Part shown: one piece after another, positions 49,073-64,000 of the stretch | Layout: each line of letters starts with the position of its first letter | How positions within the stretch are numbered: position 1 is the first letter of the stretch | NCBI GenBank assembly: GCA_038087875.1 | Contig: CM075990.1 | Location: forward strand, 16,556,001 to 16,620,000 | From: Malacoraja senta | Lineage: Eukaryota | Direction: 5' to 3' | DNA: 64,000 nucleotides | Program-made: the position numbers and the translations under genes | Notes under the pieces: model-generated | The model's database searches: none | What the model was told of the DNA's origin: nothing | The model's input: only the letters and a program-made list of their open reading frames with translations

Positions 49073-50868
49073 GTACTGACGCCTATGCATGAGTGTGATG
49101 ACCCGCACAGTACGTGACTGATTTGCGTTGCTCAATGTTGCTCCACTTGATGTCTTGCATGCTGTTTTTCTAATGGGATTGGTGGTGGTTTCTGATCAAA
49201 GCCAAGCGAAAAATTATCTGAAACATGTTATCGGTTGAGGCTTGAGTAGTATTGATGAGCTGCATTAATGCCCAGATAGATCCATGTTTAGTTTTCCCCA
49301 AATTATGTTAGAAGTAAAGGCCATAGTTACTACGCTGTTTGGAATTCTGAATAGTTATTACCTTATTGTCCTTGCATAACCTCTACCAAAATATCATGCC
49401 AATTCTTGCTGGTTTTGAGATAGTATGAATAAATTTGATTGGGCTACAGTTTCACTCATCAGAGGCTGGAATTGTGAATGATGCAACTTTCACAGATTTA
49501 TACAGTACAAGGCTATACCATAATTGGAGTTTAGTATAACCGTAATAGTTTTCATGCATCATGAAATTGAAGCAAATGTATCTTGTGAATTGGTATTTTG
49601 TTCAAATGGAACTCAGTTATGTTTTAATTCATATTAAAGCAAACATTTATTACGTTCCTAATTCATATAAAGCTAACATTATACTTAATATGTATAATGT
49701 TATACATAATGAGAAGAGAGAAAACTTACACCCACATATATCTACAGGCTTCCTTCTATAAAACTGAATTACACTAAAATGAAATTAACAAAATTAAGTG
49801 CAAAGAGTTGAGTGATGCAAAATAAAGATTAGAGTGAACAGAAGCTCTAGAAAGTTGGTTATATAGTGCTGATTTGTTTTAATGTGTATGGGTTTGAGTT
49901 GCTGAGGATGTACATAAAAGATATTACATGATTTTAAAAAGTTTGTGCCATTATTTTGGATAGAATACATTTGTTTGGGCCAATATAAATAGTGGAGCAA
50001 TGGTATTTTTCTGAGATTAAGGTTTATTGTGCAAATTTGTTGTGGGATGATGTTTTATAATGATCAGTTGGCGGTATGTTTAGTGGGTAGGCCACTTGTG
50101 TGAAGCCACGGAGTCGAGAGTATTTCAGTGTGGTCTGTAGCAACATGGAACACCAGCTTATCAGGCCAGTAAAAGCAAGACCCAGAGATAATATGGTGGT
50201 GGCCCGTTGTTAACGACCACAGCATGGTTGTGCAGGCCCATGTCTTGTGGGATCCAGTTGTTTTAAACGATGCTGCTATATTAAATGGTTGCGAGGGAAA
50301 GATAGATCGGCCATGATTGAATGGTGGAGTGGACTTGAGTGGCCGAATGGCCTAATTCTGCTAGAATTTATCAGCTTGTGTAGCGAAATTAATCCTGACC
50401 CTCATCTGCAGTTTGGGGTAAAATGGAATACAATTGATTTTTCATTTTAGGGACAAACTATGTGCATGCTTTATTTCAAGTTAATCTAAAAATTAATCCT
50501 GGCGTGAAATCTCATTCAAGGCTTTCAATCTTTTGCTTTCTGCTACCTTGTGTTAAATTTAATTCCGTTTAGAATGTTTTAAGGTTAACAATCATTTTCT
50601 TACAACAAATGTGTGAGCAATCACTCTTGGAGAGTTCACGTTTTGCTTCTTGTTTAAAACGCACTACAGTCTTGATAATTTGAGAATGCCATTTTCTGTC
50701 TCGCTTTTGTTTTAAATCATTGTTCTCTCCTGCAAAACTTTCAGTGCCTTAATTTGTCATGCTGGTTTTAATTATTGATTATGTGTCTGATATTGTGCAC
50801 CAGAGCTGTGACTTTGCAATTTAGATTATGATTATTATTACTAATCCAATCAATCATGTTTGTGTATA

Positions 50869-54339: not shown

Positions 54340-57300
54340 AAATAGAGAATGCTATTAGACAGTGTGTGAGGCAGGAGGCAGAGAAGGAAAGCACTCAGAC
54401 CCAACATGTAGGGGGGAAAAGAAGAAAACAATAATAAACACAGAAAAGAGGTGGTGGGGTTCTTAAATGGGTGAGCAGAGAAACAGAGGGGTGTAAAATG
54501 CGGGCGGAAGCAATAGGTAGCAAGGTGAAAAGTAAAAGTGGCAGGCAGACAAATCCACGGCAAAAATCAAAAAGAGCCACTTTTCAACATAATTGTATAA
54601 GGGGTAAGAGCGTTGTAAAAACAAGCCTGAAGGCTTTGTGTCTCAATGCACGGAGCATTCGTAATAAGGTGGATGAGTTGAACGTGCAGATAGCAATTAA
54701 TGATTATGATATAGTTGGGATCACGGAGACATGGCTCCAGGGTGACCAAGGCTGGGAGCTGAACATCCAGGGATATTCAATATTCAGGAGGGATAGATGA
54801 GAAGGAAAAGGAGGTGGGGTTAGCGTTGCTGGTTAGAGGAGATTAACGCAGTGGAAAGGAAGGACATTAGCTTGGAGGATGTGGAATCGGTATGGGTAGA
54901 GCTGCGAAACACTAAGGGGCAGAAAACGCTGGTGGGTGTTGTGTACAGGCCACCTAGCAGTAGTAGTGAAGTTGGGGATGGCATCAAACAGGAAATTAGA
55001 AATGCGTGCAACAAAGGCAAAACAGTTATAATGGGTGACTTCAATCTACATATAGATTGGGTGAATCAAATTGGCAGGGGTGCTGAGGAAGAGGATTTCT
55101 TGGAATGTATGAGGGATAGTTATCTAAACCAACATGTAGAGGAACCAACGAGAGAGCAGGCTATTCTAGACTGGGTATTGAGTAATGAGGAAGGGTTAGT
55201 TAGCAGACTTGTTGTGCATGCCCCTTGGGCAAGAGGGACCATAATATGGTTGAGTTCTTCATTAGGATGGAGAGTGACATTGTTAATTCAGAAACAACGG
55301 TTCTGAACTTAAAGAAAGGTAACTTTGAGGGTATGAGACGTGAATTGGCCAAGATTGACTGGCAATTAGTTCTAAAAGGGTTGACGGTGGATATGCAATG
55401 GAAGGCATTTAAAGACTGCATGGATGAACTACAAAAATTGTTCATCCCAGTTTGGCAAAAGAATAAATCAGGGAAGGTAGTGCATCCGTGGATAACAAGG
55501 GAAATCAGGGATAGTATCAAAGCAAAAGATGATGCGTACAAATTAGCCAGAAAAAGCAGCATACCAGAGGACTGGGAGAAATTCAGAGACCAGCAGAGGA
55601 GGACAAAGGGCTTAATTAGGAAAGGGAAAATAGATTATGAAAGGAAACTGGCAGGGAACATAAAAACTGACTGCAAAAGTTTTTATAGATATGTGAAGAG
55701 AAAGAGATTAGTTAAAACAAATGTAGGTCCTTTGCAGTCAGAAACAGGTGAATTGATCATGGGGAACAAGGATATGGCGGACCAATTGAATAACTACTTT
55801 GGTTCCGTCTTCACTAAGGAAGACATAAATAATCTGCCGGAAATAGCAGGGGGCCGCGGGTCAAAGGAGATGGAGGAACTGAGTGAAATCCAGGTTAGTC
55901 GGGAAGTGGTGTTGGGTAAATTGAATGGATTAAAGGTCGATAAATCACCAGGGCCAGATAGGCTGCATCCCAGAGTACTTAAGGAAGTAGCTCCAGAAAT
56001 AGTGGATGCATTAGTGATAATTTTTCAAAACTCTTTAGATTCTGGAGTAGTTCCTGAGGATTGGAGGGTAGCAAATGTAACCCCATTTTTTAAGAAGGGA
56101 GGGAGAGAGAAAACGGGGAATTACAGACCAGTTAGTCTAACATCGGTAGTGGGGAAACTGCTAGAGTCAGTTATTAAAAATGGGATAGCAGCACATTTGG
56201 AAAGTGGTGAAATCATTGGACAAAGTCAGCATGGATTTACGAAAGGTAAATCGTGTCTGACGAATCTTATAGAATTTTTCGAGGATGTAACTAGTAGAGT
56301 GGATAGGGGAGAACCAGTGGATGTGTTGTATCTGGACTTTCAGAAGGCTTTCGACAAGGTACCACATAAGAGATTAGGATACAAACTTAAATCACACGGT
56401 ATTGGGGGTTCAGTATTGATGTGGATAGAGAACTGGCTGGCAAACAGGAAGCAAAGAGTAGGAGTAAACGGGTCCTTTTCACAATGGCAGGCAGTGACTA
56501 GTGGGGTACCGCAAGGCTCAGTGCTGGGACCCCAGCTATTTACAATTTATATTAATGATCTGGACGAGGGAATTGAAAGCAACATCTCCAAGTTTGCAGA
56601 TGACACTAAGCTGGGGGGCAGTGTTAACTGTGAGGAGGATGCTAGGAGACTGCAAGGTGACTTGGATAGGCTGGGTGAGTGGGCAAATGTTTGGCAGATG
56701 CAGTATAATGTGGATAAATGTGAGGTTATCCACTTTGGTGGCAAAAACGGGAAGGCAGACTATTATCTAAATGGTGGCCGATTAGGAAATGGGGAGATGC
56801 AGCGAGACCTGGGTGTCATGGTACACCAGTCATTGAAAGTAGGCATGCAGGTGCAGCAGGCAGTGAAGAAAGCGAATGGTATGATGGCCTTCATAGCAAG
56901 AGGATTTGAGTATAGGAGCAGGGAGGTTCTACTGCAGTTGTACAGGGTCTTGGTGAGACCACACCTGGAGTATTGTGTACAGTTTTGGTCTCCAAATCTG
57001 AGGAAGAACATTATAGCCATAGAGGGAGTGCAGAGAAGGTTCACCAGACTGATTCCTGGGATGTCAGGACTTTCATATGAAGAAAGACTGGATAGACTTG
57101 GCTTATACTCGCTAGAATTTAGGAGATTGAGAGGGGATCTTATAGAAACGTACAAAATTCTTATGGGGTTGGACAGGCTAGATGCAGGAAGATTGTTCCC
57201 GATGTTGGGGAAGTCCAGGACAAGGGGTCACAGCTTAAGGATAAGGGGGAAATCCTTTAAGACCGAGATGAGGAAAAACTTTTTCACACAGAGAGTGGTG

Positions 57301-62824: not shown

Positions 62825-63803
62825 GATAGGTCCATGGATATGCCAAAAATGGAGGGATATGGATCACGTGCAGGCAGAGTGGATTGACTTGGCATCATGT
62901 TCAGCCCAGACATCGTGGGTAAAAGGACTTGTTCATGTGCTGCACTGTTGTACGTTCAACTTTTACTTGGTTTCAACTTGTACAGAAGGTTGTGGTTTGT
63001 GCTTATTTGAGCTTGAGCCACATATCCAGGTGCGGCAATCTGTCTGAATGGAAAATGAGAGACAAGTCCTACCGTAAATGCGTTATGCATTTTAGTCATT
63101 GCATCACTGACGAATGCCCATCGTATGTTTACAGAGGACCGACTGACATTATATAACAAGTAACTTTAATGTCCTTAGCTGATTGAGTTGTTAGATTGCT
63201 TTGGTGGACATTACTAATGGCATTGCCTCCACTCAATGGCATTGAGTATTAATATCCTCCAAACATTACATTACATTTCGCTCAGATGTATGAACAAAAC
63301 GAGCAATATTAATATTTAATAGCAGTTAATATCTTTTAACTGATGTAAATAATTATAGTGACATTAATATAATATATTGGATCCATATATACCCATTGCT
63401 GCTTGAATTTAATAAAAGTAATATATCACAGATTTGCTCATCTGTGTGTCATCAATTAGACTTTAACTAATCATTTTCTTAGGATAATTAAACATTTCAG
63501 TCCATAAATGTTGATTATCCAATACGTGCCTAAATATTTTTAAAGCAACTTAATTATCTGACTGCAATATTAACTGAAGACACAAGGAATGAGGCAAAAT
63601 ACTAAATATTTACAGTAAACACACTTTTAATATGTTGTATGTAAAATGGTGGATGTGGTCAGCAGGATAGGTCACACCCATAGAGAGAAGTAGACTTAAT
63701 GTTTCTGGTCAGCACCTCTTCAGCAGAACCGAAGAATTTACTGATCTGGACTCTATATTCTTAAAAGGACACCGAGGTAGTGAGACAGACACAAATGCTG
63801 TAG

Positions 63804-63945
63804 TCTTCTTCTTCTTGCGTATGGCGTGCACAGGCTAAAGTTGTGGAACAACTTGTTCTATTTGACCTTATTTGCTTGTGCACACCAGGTTGATTGCATT
63901 CGTTGAAACAGGGCGGACCACGTGAAGGTTACAATCTCCCACCCC
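63804..63945 (-). mobile_element. 142-bp non-autonomous retroelement (probably Ingi/Vingi- or RTE-mobilised) with ribozyme head and (AAG)n tail
   Basis: 10-bp TSD AATGCTGTAG at 63794-63803 and 63946-63955. 3' end is CCATACGC(AAG)n. Inserted into a Penelope-derived short repeat. Confidence 0.8.
63892..63945 (-). ncRNA. Minimal HDV-like (CPEB3-type) ribozyme motif
   Basis: GGGGUGG-GA-GAUUGUA-ACC-UUCACGU-GGU-CCGCCCU-GU-UUCAA-CGAA-UGCAAUC. P1 7 bp, P2 7 bp, P3 3 bp, L3 UUCACGU, J4/2 CGAA. Confidence 0.85.
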
Positions 63946-64000
63946 AATGCTGTAGCAACTCAGCGGGACAGGCAGCATCTCTGGAGAGAAGGAATGGGTG

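What the first reader, a model, noticed from the sequence alone, without database searches (positions are those of the whole stretch)
63804..63945. 142-bp retroelement whose 5' end is a minimal, essentially P4-less HDV-like ribozyme
Seen: the minus strand starts GGGGUGG GA GAUUGUA ACC UUCACGU GGU CCGCCCU GU UUCAA CGAA UGCAAUC (54 nt). This gives a 7-bp P1 with a G1-U wobble, a 7-bp P2, a 3-bp P3 and L3 UUCACGU. L3 and the GU after P1 are the same as in the mammalian CPEB3 ribozyme, and J4/2 CGAA carries the candidate catalytic C. Only about 5 nt replace P4. G1 coincides exactly with the element boundary set independently by a 10-bp TSD (AATGCTGTAG). The remaining 88 nt form a nested hairpin (GGUGUGCACA/UGUGCACGCC enclosing AAGUUGU/ACAACUU) and end in CCAUACGC(AAG)n. 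Known: R2, RTE and L1Tc/ingi retrotransposons use 5' HDV-like ribozymes to cut their RNA out of host transcripts. Inference: this is a promoterless ribozyme-headed SINE (self-cleaving head, LINE-recognition hairpin, tail), mobilised in trans, probably by an Ingi/Vingi- or RTE-type LINE. I cannot tell from sequence alone whether the family is already described.
Basis: partly seen in the sequence, partly recalled or inferred. Interest (0 to 1): 0.92.

Follow-up and report, generated by a model that had tools for sequence, protein, structure and literature searches.

The report
Ribozyme-headed short retroelement and its LINE
This 142-base repeat is a stripped-down copy of a jumping gene that kept only the parent's two ends, and its first 54 bases fold like a very small self-cutting RNA of the hepatitis-delta type, which probably trims the element's RNA to its exact start.

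Summary
Window 63804-63945(-) is a 142-bp element flanked by a 10-bp target-site duplication and ending in an (AAG)n tail. Its genome gave at least 2298 candidate copies. All 30 copies inspected start at the same G, and 24 of those 30 have an exact duplication ending at that G.

The first 54 nt draw as an HDV-like double pseudoknot without P4. The unpaired core (L3 UUCACGU, CCCUGU, C-N-A-A) equals the Rfam CPEB3 consensus.

The fold alone is not rare: 2 perfect hits in 10 shuffled windows. Comparison makes the case:
- Rfam's CPEB3 model hits five other repeat families in this genome (39 of 60 listed matches over cut-off).
- Their P1, P2 and P3 covary with the 142-mer's (93% of cells paired against 72% shuffled).
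- A model built only from those families finds the window head at 27.6 bits (E about 5e-5).

I found the parent. It is an RTE-like LINE ("LINE-X") with the same P4-less head at its 5' end and the same last 36-40 nt plus tail. The 142-mer is therefore an internal-deletion derivative, like the SIDEs of R2.

Self-cleavage itself is untested, and the one RNA read-laying was confounded. Verdict: new variant of a known kind.

The parts
63946..63955 (-). Upstream copy of the 10-bp target-site duplication (CTACAGCATT on the minus strand).
   Evidence: In one search, reads from other copies of the host repeat run straight through this point, which serves as empty-site evidence.
63892..63945 (-). 54-nt head: an HDV-like (CPEB3-type core) ribozyme fold without P4. 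Cleavage is predicted 5' of G63945.
   Evidence: RF00622 14.9 bits, E 0.068, best of 4227 families; R1 27.6 bits, E 5.5e-5.
63939..63945 (-). P1 5' strand GGGGUGG. It pairs with 63910-63916 (CCGCCCU), with a G1-U wobble at the base.
   Evidence: In one search, helix 1 has 92.9% of cells paired and 3 pairs with changes on both sides; this helix was not part of the model that made the alignment.
63930..63936 (-). P2 5' strand GAUUGUA (family: GAUUGCA). It pairs with 63892-63898 (UGCAAUC).
   Evidence: 63931 A>G in about 95% of reads; helix 2: 6 of 7 pairs changed on both sides.
63917..63929 (-). P3 (ACC/GGU) enclosing L3 UUCACGU. The AC of L3 can pair with the GU at 63908-63909 to form P1.1.
   Evidence: The P1.1 pairing is inferred from sequence only.
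63903..63907 (-). 5-nt linker UUCAA (family majority UUCGA) in the place of P4.
   Evidence: (63904 T>C in about 70-87% of reads or depth, by run).
63899..63902 (-). J4/2 CGAA. C63902 is the candidate catalytic cytosine.
   Evidence: C63902 aligns to the C of the CPEB3 J4/2. No variant reaching 10% is listed at 63902, while 63901 and 63904 both vary.
63863..63891 (-). Spacer shared with the 5' UTR of LINE-X. It holds the 5' arm of the outer hairpin (63877-63886).
   Evidence: L132, L134-L143 read ...TGCAATCAACCCGACGTGCACAAAC....
63823..63886 (-). Nested hairpin. The outer stem is 63877-63886 with 63823-63832. The inner stem of the family is 63848-63854 with 63838-63844.
63811..63851 (-). Stretch shared with the 3' end of LINE-X. 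It includes the last codons and the stop codon of the LINE ORF (CTACAACTTTAG) and its roughly 20-nt 3' UTR.
63804..63816 (-). (AAG)n tail.
63794..63803 (-). Downstream copy of the target-site duplication.

Best explanation
The element is a non-autonomous, internally deleted derivative of an RTE-like LINE ('LINE-X') of the same genome.

What it keeps from the parent:
- The LINE's first ~83 nt: a 54-nt HDV-like ribozyme fold without P4, plus the start of the 5' UTR.
- Its last 36-40 nt, plus the (AAG)n tail.

Proposed mechanism (inferred steps are marked):
1. Copies are transcribed as part of longer host transcripts (inferred).
2. The head folds into the P1/P1.1/P2/P3 double pseudoknot. The cytosine of C-N-A-A cuts the chain just 5' of G1, giving an RNA that starts exactly at the element boundary (inferred from fold, homology and boundaries; not assayed).
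3. The LINE-X protein recognises the shared 3' end and tail in trans and copies the RNA into a nicked target by target-primed reverse transcription. This leaves 7-14-bp target-site duplications (the duplications are shown; the trans step is inferred from 3'-end sharing).
For: Family and boundaries:
- 2298 candidates, 40 scored at 94-100% identity, 39 of 40 starting at query position 1.
- 30 of 30 fetched copies begin with the same GGG(G/A)TG motif, and 24 of 30 have an exact duplication of at least 7 nt ending at G1. These 30 are the best-scoring copies, so they are biased towards full length, and L015 equals L018.

Fold:
- It is the only perfect descriptor hit in the window.
- RF00622 aligns end to end and is the best of 4227 families.

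Context:
- RF00622 gives 39 of 60 listed matches over its cut-off in this genome and none over cut-off in 14 control genomes.
- The matches fall into families A-E, whose upstream flanks differ from copy to copy right up to G1.
- Family A heads a 3.15-kb LINE with one APE+RVT_1 ORF, an (AAG)n tail and a target-site duplication.
- Family B is a 170-nt P4-less tailed element with target-site duplications.

Covariation:
- 9 of 17 head pairs change on both sides between the 142-mer and families A, C and E.
- On alignment A2 (14 rows), 93.0% of cells pair against 71.9% in shuffles (0 of 500 as high) and 40-49% when partners are slid. 18 of 25 pairs change on both sides.
- Model R1, built from A-E only, finds the window head as the top hit of the 64 kb (27.6 bits, E 5.5e-5).

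Variation within the family:
- The five head sites with at least 10% variant reads are n8 (J1/2), n15 (P2, U-G to C-G), n32 (P1, U-G to U-A), n42 (linker) and n45 (second base of J4/2).
- None of these breaks a helix, and the candidate catalytic C shows no listed variant.

Parent LINE:
- The 3' end is shared over 36-40 nt plus tail.
- LINE-X has an RT domain (RVT_1 42.7 bits) with 38% identity over 329 aa to LINE A. Its APE region matches at 27.5% over 109 aa.
- All 10 LINE-X 5' ends fetched carry the head. Two start at GGGGTGG; the other 8 lack 1-12 nt.

Precedent: natural HDV-like ribozymes without P4 cleave in vitro in other settings (passages read in bioRxiv 10.1101/2023.06.13.544163).
Against: - No cleavage assay was done and no RNA 5'-end evidence was obtained.
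- The window head scores only 14.9 bits on RF00622, against a cut-off of 35. It was missed entirely in a 501-nt search and in the 3-kb loci L003 and L090.
- The pairing pattern alone arises by chance about once in five shuffled windows.
- P4 is absent, and its loss could weaken or abolish activity in this scaffold.
- In sister family B, the register that keeps the G1-U wobble leaves two mismatches in P1.
- L090 and L142 were not recovered by R1 at E <= 0.001.
- The rows of the covariation count are related copies from six families, not independent events.
- Clade assignment of LINE-X rests on architecture and similarity to LINE A, not on a tree.
Confidence: 0.72

Rival explanations
1. The head keeps an HDV-like fold but no longer cuts. 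It would serve as a protein-binding or translation-start module for LINE-X, as the R2 5' pseudoknot binds R2 protein. The 5' end would be set some other way, for example by a transcription start at G1.
For: - P4 is missing.
- The window copy scores below the Rfam cut-off.
- In one LINE-X copy (L132) the first in-frame ATG of the ORF lies inside J4/2-P2, so the head overlaps the translation start.
- The review passages read state that R2 protein binds a pseudoknot within its ribozyme.
Against: - The candidate catalytic C and the C-N-A-A frame are kept while their neighbours vary.
- The G1-U wobble is kept in 11 of 14 rows.
- Every copy has a different upstream flank, so no upstream promoter can be shared.
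- P4-less natural ribozymes are active elsewhere.
Confidence: 0.17
2. It is a classical SINE transcribed by RNA polymerase III from an internal promoter, and the ribozyme-like pairing is incidental.
For: - Copies have precise 5' ends and a LINE-derived 3' end, as in classical SINEs.
- The stretch GTTTCGACGAA distantly recalls a B box. I made this comparison by eye against a recalled consensus, with 3 mismatches.
Against: - No tRNA was found, and there were no 7SL, 5S or other Rfam hits.
- The same head sits at the 5' end of the protein-coding LINE-X, which is not a pol III unit.
- Covariation supports the fold.
Confidence: 0.04
3. The match to an HDV-like fold is a chance look-alike in an ordinary repeat.
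For: The descriptor alone gives 2 perfect hits in 10 shuffled windows.
Against: Core identity to the CPEB3 consensus. The independent model R1 gives E 5.5e-5. Covariation across six families. The boundary coincides with G1.
Confidence: 0.02

Closest known systems
SIDEs (short internally deleted elements) of R2 (Eickbush & Eickbush 2012, PMC3414825: search listing and abstract; described in passages of PMC3774820 and PMC6765202)
   Same: Both are non-autonomous elements that keep only the parent LINE's 5' HDV-like ribozyme and its 3' end, and are mobilised by the parent's protein.
   Different: R2 and its SIDEs insert site-specifically in 28S rDNA and are cut out of an rRNA co-transcript. This element is dispersed, has variable target-site duplications, derives from an RTE-like LINE, has an (AAG)n tail, and its ribozyme lacks P4.
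RTE and other non-LTR retrotransposons with 5' HDV-like ribozymes (Ruminski et al. 2011, not held: known to me only through citing passages, and by recall)
   Same: An HDV-like ribozyme sits at the exact 5' end of an APE+RT LINE. It is thought to free the element RNA from read-through transcripts.
   Different: Here the head is 54 nt without P4 and has the CPEB3-type core. I could not read the primary paper, so I cannot say whether similar vertebrate RTE heads are listed there.
Mammalian CPEB3 ribozyme (Rfam RF00622)
   Same: Same L3 UUCACGU, CCCUGU after P1, CGAA in J4/2, and G-rich P1 with a G1-U wobble. Sister families score up to 64.2 bits on the model.
   Different: CPEB3 is a single-copy intronic ribozyme with a P4 helix. 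The window head lacks P4, has different P2 and P3 sequences, scores 14.9 bits against a cut-off of 35, and is part of a mobile element.
Minimal HDV-like ribozymes without P4: drz-Mtgn-1 (Riccitelli et al. 2014, recalled and cited) and theta ribozymes of gut phages (bioRxiv 10.1101/2023.06.13.544163, passages read)
   Same: Both are natural double pseudoknots that lack the P4 domain.
   Different: Those come from metagenomes or phages and sit next to tRNAs or have unknown hosts. This one heads a eukaryotic LINE and its deletion derivative.
L1Tc / NARTc of Trypanosoma cruzi (PMC3185411, PMC3383444: abstracts seen)
   Same: An autonomous LINE and its truncated non-autonomous partner share a 5' HDV-like ribozyme.
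   Different: There the same 77 nt also act as an internal promoter, and the clade is L1Tc/ingi. No promoter function was tested here, and the LINE looks RTE-like.

Membership tests
HDV-like (delta-like) self-cleaving ribozymes | Nested double-pseudoknot order: P1, P2, P3-L3-P3', P1', (P4), J4/2, P2'. | tested here: met
   (17 of 17 pairs standard); 93% of cells paired; P1, P2 and P3 each have pairs changed on both sides.
HDV-like (delta-like) self-cleaving ribozymes | G1-U wobble at the cleavage site, at the base of P1. | tested here: met
   G63945 with U63910. G-U in 11 of 14 aligned rows.
HDV-like (delta-like) self-cleaving ribozymes | Catalytic cytosine in J4/2, just before the P2 3' strand. 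| tested here: met
   C63902 aligns to the J4/2 C of RF00622 and of R1. No variant of at least 10% is listed there, while both neighbouring variable sites change. Its catalytic role is inferred.
HDV-like (delta-like) self-cleaving ribozymes | P1.1 between L3 and the two bases after P1. | tested here: inconclusive
   The AC of L3 can pair with GU 63908-63909. These columns do not vary, so they give no comparative support.
HDV-like (delta-like) self-cleaving ribozymes | P4 helix. | tested here: not met
   Five nt (UUCAA) stand in its place. P4 is dispensable in the accepted 'minimal' members, so its absence does not exclude membership.
HDV-like (delta-like) self-cleaving ribozymes | Site-specific self-scission. 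| not testable with these tools
   No assay was possible. The one read-laying was uninformative.
Rfam CPEB3_ribozyme (RF00622) | Score at or above the gathering cut-off of 35 bits. | tested here: not met
   The window head scores 14.9 bits. Sister families A-E score 35-64 bits, and B copy L050 scores 36.3 bits.
Internal-deletion derivative of a LINE (SIDE-like) | 5' end shared with the autonomous element. | tested here: met
   LINE-X copies L140 and L142 begin with the same head, and L132 continues from it into the APE-RT ORF.
Internal-deletion derivative of a LINE (SIDE-like) | 3' end shared with the autonomous element. | tested here: met
   36-40 nt plus (AAG)n are shared with LINE-X 3' ends. 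The shared stretch includes the ORF's stop codon.
Classical SINE | 5' part derived from a pol III gene (tRNA, 7SL, 5S) with an internal promoter. | tested here: not met
   No tRNA found and no such Rfam family matched.
Non-LTR retroelement copies made by target-primed reverse transcription | Target-site duplications of variable sequence, and a 3' tail. | tested here: met
   24 of 30 copies have an exact duplication of at least 7 nt, and all 30 have an (AAG)n tail.
RTE clade (for LINE-X and LINE A) | A single ORF with APE then RT, no RNase H, about 3.2 kb, very short 3' UTR. | tested here: met
   LINE A: 940-aa ORF hitting Exo_endo_phos and RVT_1 only, 3.15 kb in all. LINE-X was seen in pieces only: RVT_1, APE-like, and a 3' UTR of about 20 nt.
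RTE clade (for LINE-X and LINE A) | Placement within RTE on an RT tree with reference elements. | not tested
   No reference RT set was at hand.

The most novel reading that the evidence does not exclude
The CPEB3-type core (L3 UUCACGU, CCCUGU, C-N-A-A) is the hereditary 5' head of a lineage of RTE-like retrotransposons, and the single-copy mammalian CPEB3 intron ribozyme is a domesticated head of that lineage. Within the lineage, a 54-nt form without P4 is fully sufficient in vivo. It heads an autonomous LINE and two short derivatives with thousands of copies, which would make it the smallest HDV-like ribozyme with a known job in a eukaryote.
Probability: 0.35. Interest if true: 0.8.

Novelty: new variant of a known kind. 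Interest (0 to 1): 0.62.

Why it matters
LINEs with HDV-like ribozymes at their 5' ends, and short derivatives that ride on them, are known.

Three things appear new as far as my searches reach:
- A natural head without P4 works, or at least persists, at the 5' end of an autonomous eukaryotic LINE and of its high-copy deletion derivative. A 2023 preprint (passages read) still called the origin and role of minimal P4-less ribozymes undetermined.
- The core is the same as that of the mammalian CPEB3 ribozyme. Several repeat families of one genome pass Rfam's CPEB3 cut-off, which gives a testable origin for that ribozyme.
- The family offers a natural series of heads with and without P4 on one scaffold, ready for cleavage assays.

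My paper searches found no description of this. However, Ruminski et al. 2011 and Webb et al. 2009 were not held, and Repbase and Dfam could not be consulted.

Tried and rejected
- **RNA evidence.** The look-up of sequencing runs listed no RNA holder. I laid two raw oligo-dT RNA runs (X23, X24) and two contig sets (X1, X16) on window 63700-64000. The element is covered about 580-1070 deep on both directions in the 5% sample. No place of many starts or ends was flagged. The test says nothing either way, for two reasons. The neighbouring repeat at 63946-64000 is 10-20 times deeper and sets the threshold and fills the loose-end table. Also, reads from other copies lose their flanks at the same point.

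- **Negative-IUPAC pattern searches for a LINE sharing one end.** These returned only indel or deletion variants of the 142-mer (21 and 6 matches). Later work showed why: my negative positions lay inside the stretch that LINE-X also shares. One search was also too strict, with six negative positions.

- **Walking up LINE-X.** All 8 windows fetched at the expected 5' distance were blank. The copy at C1:156.58 Mb ends near aa 285. L133 ends near aa 146. No full-length LINE-X copy was read end to end. The element is pieced together from L096, L110, L132, L140 and L142.

- **Family C (L035, L039).** These share only about 109 nt and then differ, so I make no claim about their bodies. A weak tblastn hit in L035 was not pursued.

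- **Earlier notes of this scan.** Nothing was found.

- **Papers not held.** DOI 10.1074/jbc.M111.297283, PMC3308841 and PMC3159031.

Full report
**What is there**

On the minus strand the window reads CTACAGCATT | GGGGTGGGAGATTGTAACCTTCACGTGGTCCGCCCTGTTTCAACGAATGCAATC ... CCATACGC(AAG)4A | CTACAGCATT. It sits inside another, far more abundant repeat. Reads from other copies of that repeat run straight through the insertion point (loose ends at 63946), which serves as empty-site evidence.

**Family and boundaries**

- The window's own genome (G000, 1.94 Gb, unnamed) gave 2298 first-look candidates. The 40 scored copies are 94-100% identical, and 39 of 40 start at query position 1.
- In the 30 loci fetched, 30 of 30 copies begin with the same GGG(G/A)TG... 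motif and all have an (AAG)n tail. 24 of 30 have an exact duplication of 7-14 nt that ends right before G1.
- These are the top-scoring copies, so they are biased towards full length. L015 and L018 are the same sequence. 5'-truncated and internally deleted copies also exist.
- The majority sequence differs from the window copy at a few places. In particular the family has C where the window has U in P2 (C-G instead of U-G), and C in the outer hairpin arm.
- Contigs or reads of four differently labelled organisms (runs X1, X16, X23/X24) carry the element with the same majority letters. The family is therefore shared by related species.

**The head as a fold**

The 54 nt can be drawn as:
- P1 GGGGUGG/CCGCCCU (G1-U at the base)
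- J1/2 GA
- P2 GAUUGUA/UGCAAUC
- P3 ACC/GGU around L3 UUCACGU
- GU
- five nt (UUCAA) where P4 would be
- J4/2 CGAA

A strict descriptor finds this as the only perfect hit in the window on either strand. Ten block-shuffles of the window gave 2 perfect and 59 relaxed hits, so pairing alone proves little.

Rfam's CPEB3 model misses the head in a 501-nt search. In an 81-nt search it aligns end to end at 14.9 bits, E 0.068. That is the best of 4227 families, but it is far under the 35-bit cut-off. That alignment confirms that L3, CCCUGU and CGAA equal the CPEB3 consensus.

**Context that decides the matter**

Run over the whole genome, the CPEB3 model gave 60 listed matches, 39 over the cut-off, the best at 64.2 bits. 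None of 14 control genomes passed it. Reading 50 of these places shows five repeat families:

- **Family A** (P1 GGGGATC/GATCCCT, P2 GGTAGAA/TTCTACC, P3 GCG/CGC, an 8-bp P4). It is the first 84 nt of a 3.15-kb LINE with one 940-aa ORF that hits Exo_endo_phos and RVT_1. The LINE has an (AAG)n tail and its own target-site duplication.
- **Family B** is a 170-nt tailed element with target-site duplications. Its head also lacks P4 (GU UUCCA CCAA).
- **Families C, D and E** are older heads with P4.

In all families the flanks differ from copy to copy right up to the first G.

**Covariation**

- Between the 142-mer and families A, C and E, 9 of the 17 head pairs differ on both sides, while the unpaired core stays the same.
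- A covariance model built only from A-E (P2, P3 and P4 as pairs; P1 left out) finds the window head as the top hit of the 64 kb: 27.6 bits, E 5.5e-5 with rough calibration.
- On the model-made alignment of 14 heads, the full pseudoknotted structure has 93.0% of cells paired against 71.9% in shuffles (0 of 500 as high) and 40-49% with slid partners. 18 of 25 pairs change on both sides. P1, which the model did not know, is 92.9% paired, with three pairs changed on both sides.
- Caveats: the rows are related copies from six families, not independent events. L090 and L142 did not pass E <= 0.001.

**Variation inside the family**

In the laid reads and contigs, the head sites where at least 10% differ from the window copy are:

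| Site | Region | Change |
|---|---|---|
| n8 | J1/2 | G>A |
| n15 | P2 | restores C-G |
| n32 | P1 | U-G to U-A |
| n42 | linker | A>G, so most copies read UUCGA |
| n45 | second base of J4/2 | G to U or A |

None breaks a helix. The candidate catalytic C (63902) shows no listed variant, although both nearby variable sites change. The free second base of C-N-A-A also differs between families (CGAA, CUAA, CCAA). From recalled HDV structures, that base is flipped out.

**The parent LINE**

*3' side.* A pattern search for the 3' anchor with a foreign upstream (50 matches) turned up L086. There, the last 36-40 nt of the element are the end of a LINE ORF (...CGHPDQTIPHIMNDC...LDLQL, with the stop codon TAG inside CTACAACTTTAG), followed by a roughly 20-nt UTR and the tail. 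561 candidates were found for this 3' end.

*Body.* Walking upstream gave an RT part (RVT_1 42.7 bits; 38% identity over 329 aa to LINE A). It also gave an APE-like N-terminal part (27.5% over 109 aa).

*5' side.* At the 5' side of copy L132 the sequence reads ...CTAATGCAATCAACCCGACGTGCACAAACAAATAGAT..., which corresponds to positions 44 to about 83 of the 142-mer. Ten further LINE-X 5' ends were fetched. All ten carry the head. L140 and L142 start at GGGGTGG, and eight lack the first 1-12 nt, as LINE copies often do. The LINE head is the P4-less form (CCACCCT, UUCGA, CUAA) also seen in older 142-mer copies (L084, L090).

*Conclusion.* The 142-mer is LINE-X positions 1 to about 83, a dozen or so bases of unclear origin, and the LINE's last 36-40 nt plus tail. 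Its long hairpin is made of one arm from the LINE's 5' UTR and one from its 3' end. The LINE's 3' end alone is not structured (z +1.08).

**How it most likely works**

*Shown:*
- the anatomy;
- the shared ends;
- the target-site duplications;
- the conserved and covarying fold;
- the sameness of the core with a proven ribozyme class.

*Inferred:*
- copies are read through from host promoters;
- the head cuts 5' of G1;
- LINE-X protein uses the shared 3' end and tail in trans.

That P4 can be dispensed with is known from natural minimal ribozymes of metagenomes and phages (passages of bioRxiv 10.1101/2023.06.13.544163). No tRNA or other pol III gene part is present.

**What is known**

- Reviews state that R2, L1Tc, Baggins and RTE elements carry 5' HDV-like ribozymes, and that R2 has ribozyme-bearing deletion derivatives called SIDEs (passages of PMC6765202, PMC7761336, PMC3774820). 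L1Tc and NARTc share such a head (abstracts).
- The CPEB3 ribozyme is described as a conserved mammalian intron ribozyme (passages of PMC8256844 and PMC10274809).
- My six paper searches found no P4-less head in a eukaryotic retrotransposon. They also found no statement that the CPEB3 ribozyme descends from one.
- The key primary papers (Ruminski 2011, Webb 2009) were not held, and Repbase and Dfam could not be checked.

**Verdict**

I refine it to a SIDE-like deletion derivative of an RTE-like LINE that itself has the minimal head. The kind is known. The P4-less head with a CPEB3-type core, in a eukaryotic LINE and its deletion derivative, is a new variant. Catalysis remains to be shown.

Noticed in passing
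L061 201-3350 (G000:C1:217550485 onward); other copies L031-L040: LINE A: a 3.15-kb RTE-like LINE. Its first 84 nt score up to 64 bits on Rfam's mammalian CPEB3 ribozyme model (cut-off 35). It has an (AAG)n tail and a target-site duplication, ACAGAACAAAA.
   Followed up: partly
L041-L055, L063, L064, L121, L122, L128, L129: Family B: a second short (about 170 nt) tailed element with target-site duplications and a P4-less head (GU UUCCA CCAA). Its copies start with four Gs, so the register that keeps the G1-U wobble leaves two mismatches in P1. A shifted 6-bp register pairs fully.
   Followed up: partly
L132, read on the minus strand, positions 371-373 onward: In this LINE-X copy, the ATG formed by the last A of J4/2 and the first UG of the P2 3' strand is in frame with the APE-RT ORF, with no stop in between. 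The ORF may therefore start inside the ribozyme. Seen in one copy only.
   Followed up: no
window 63877-63886 with 63823-63832; LINE-X ends in L132/L140 and L086: The two arms of the element's outer hairpin come from the LINE's 5' UTR (CGTGCACA) and its 3' end (TGTGCACG). The full LINE RNA could therefore pair its two ends over 8-9 bp. GTGCAC is a palindrome, so this may be chance.
   Followed up: no
window 63946-64000 and 63700-63803: The host of the insertion is a much more abundant repeat, 10-20 times the depth of the 142-mer in RNA and DNA runs. A copy of it in L003 (2653-2750) gives sub-threshold hits to hairpin miRNA families (mir-9186 35.2 bits against a cut-off of 73).
   Followed up: no
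window 50613-50685 (+): Second-best hit of model R1 in the window (13.4 bits, E 0.34). It contains GUUCACGU and may be a decayed ribozyme head, or chance.
   Followed up: no
window 55858-56880 (+): A reverse-transcriptase-like stretch, 27% identical over 349 aa to the LINE A ORF (tblastn E 1.6e-23). It is a different LINE fragment.
   Followed up: no
L015 and L018 (G000:C3554:207183 and C17:4802220): Identical copy and flanks on two contigs. This is probably the same locus assembled twice.
   Followed up: no
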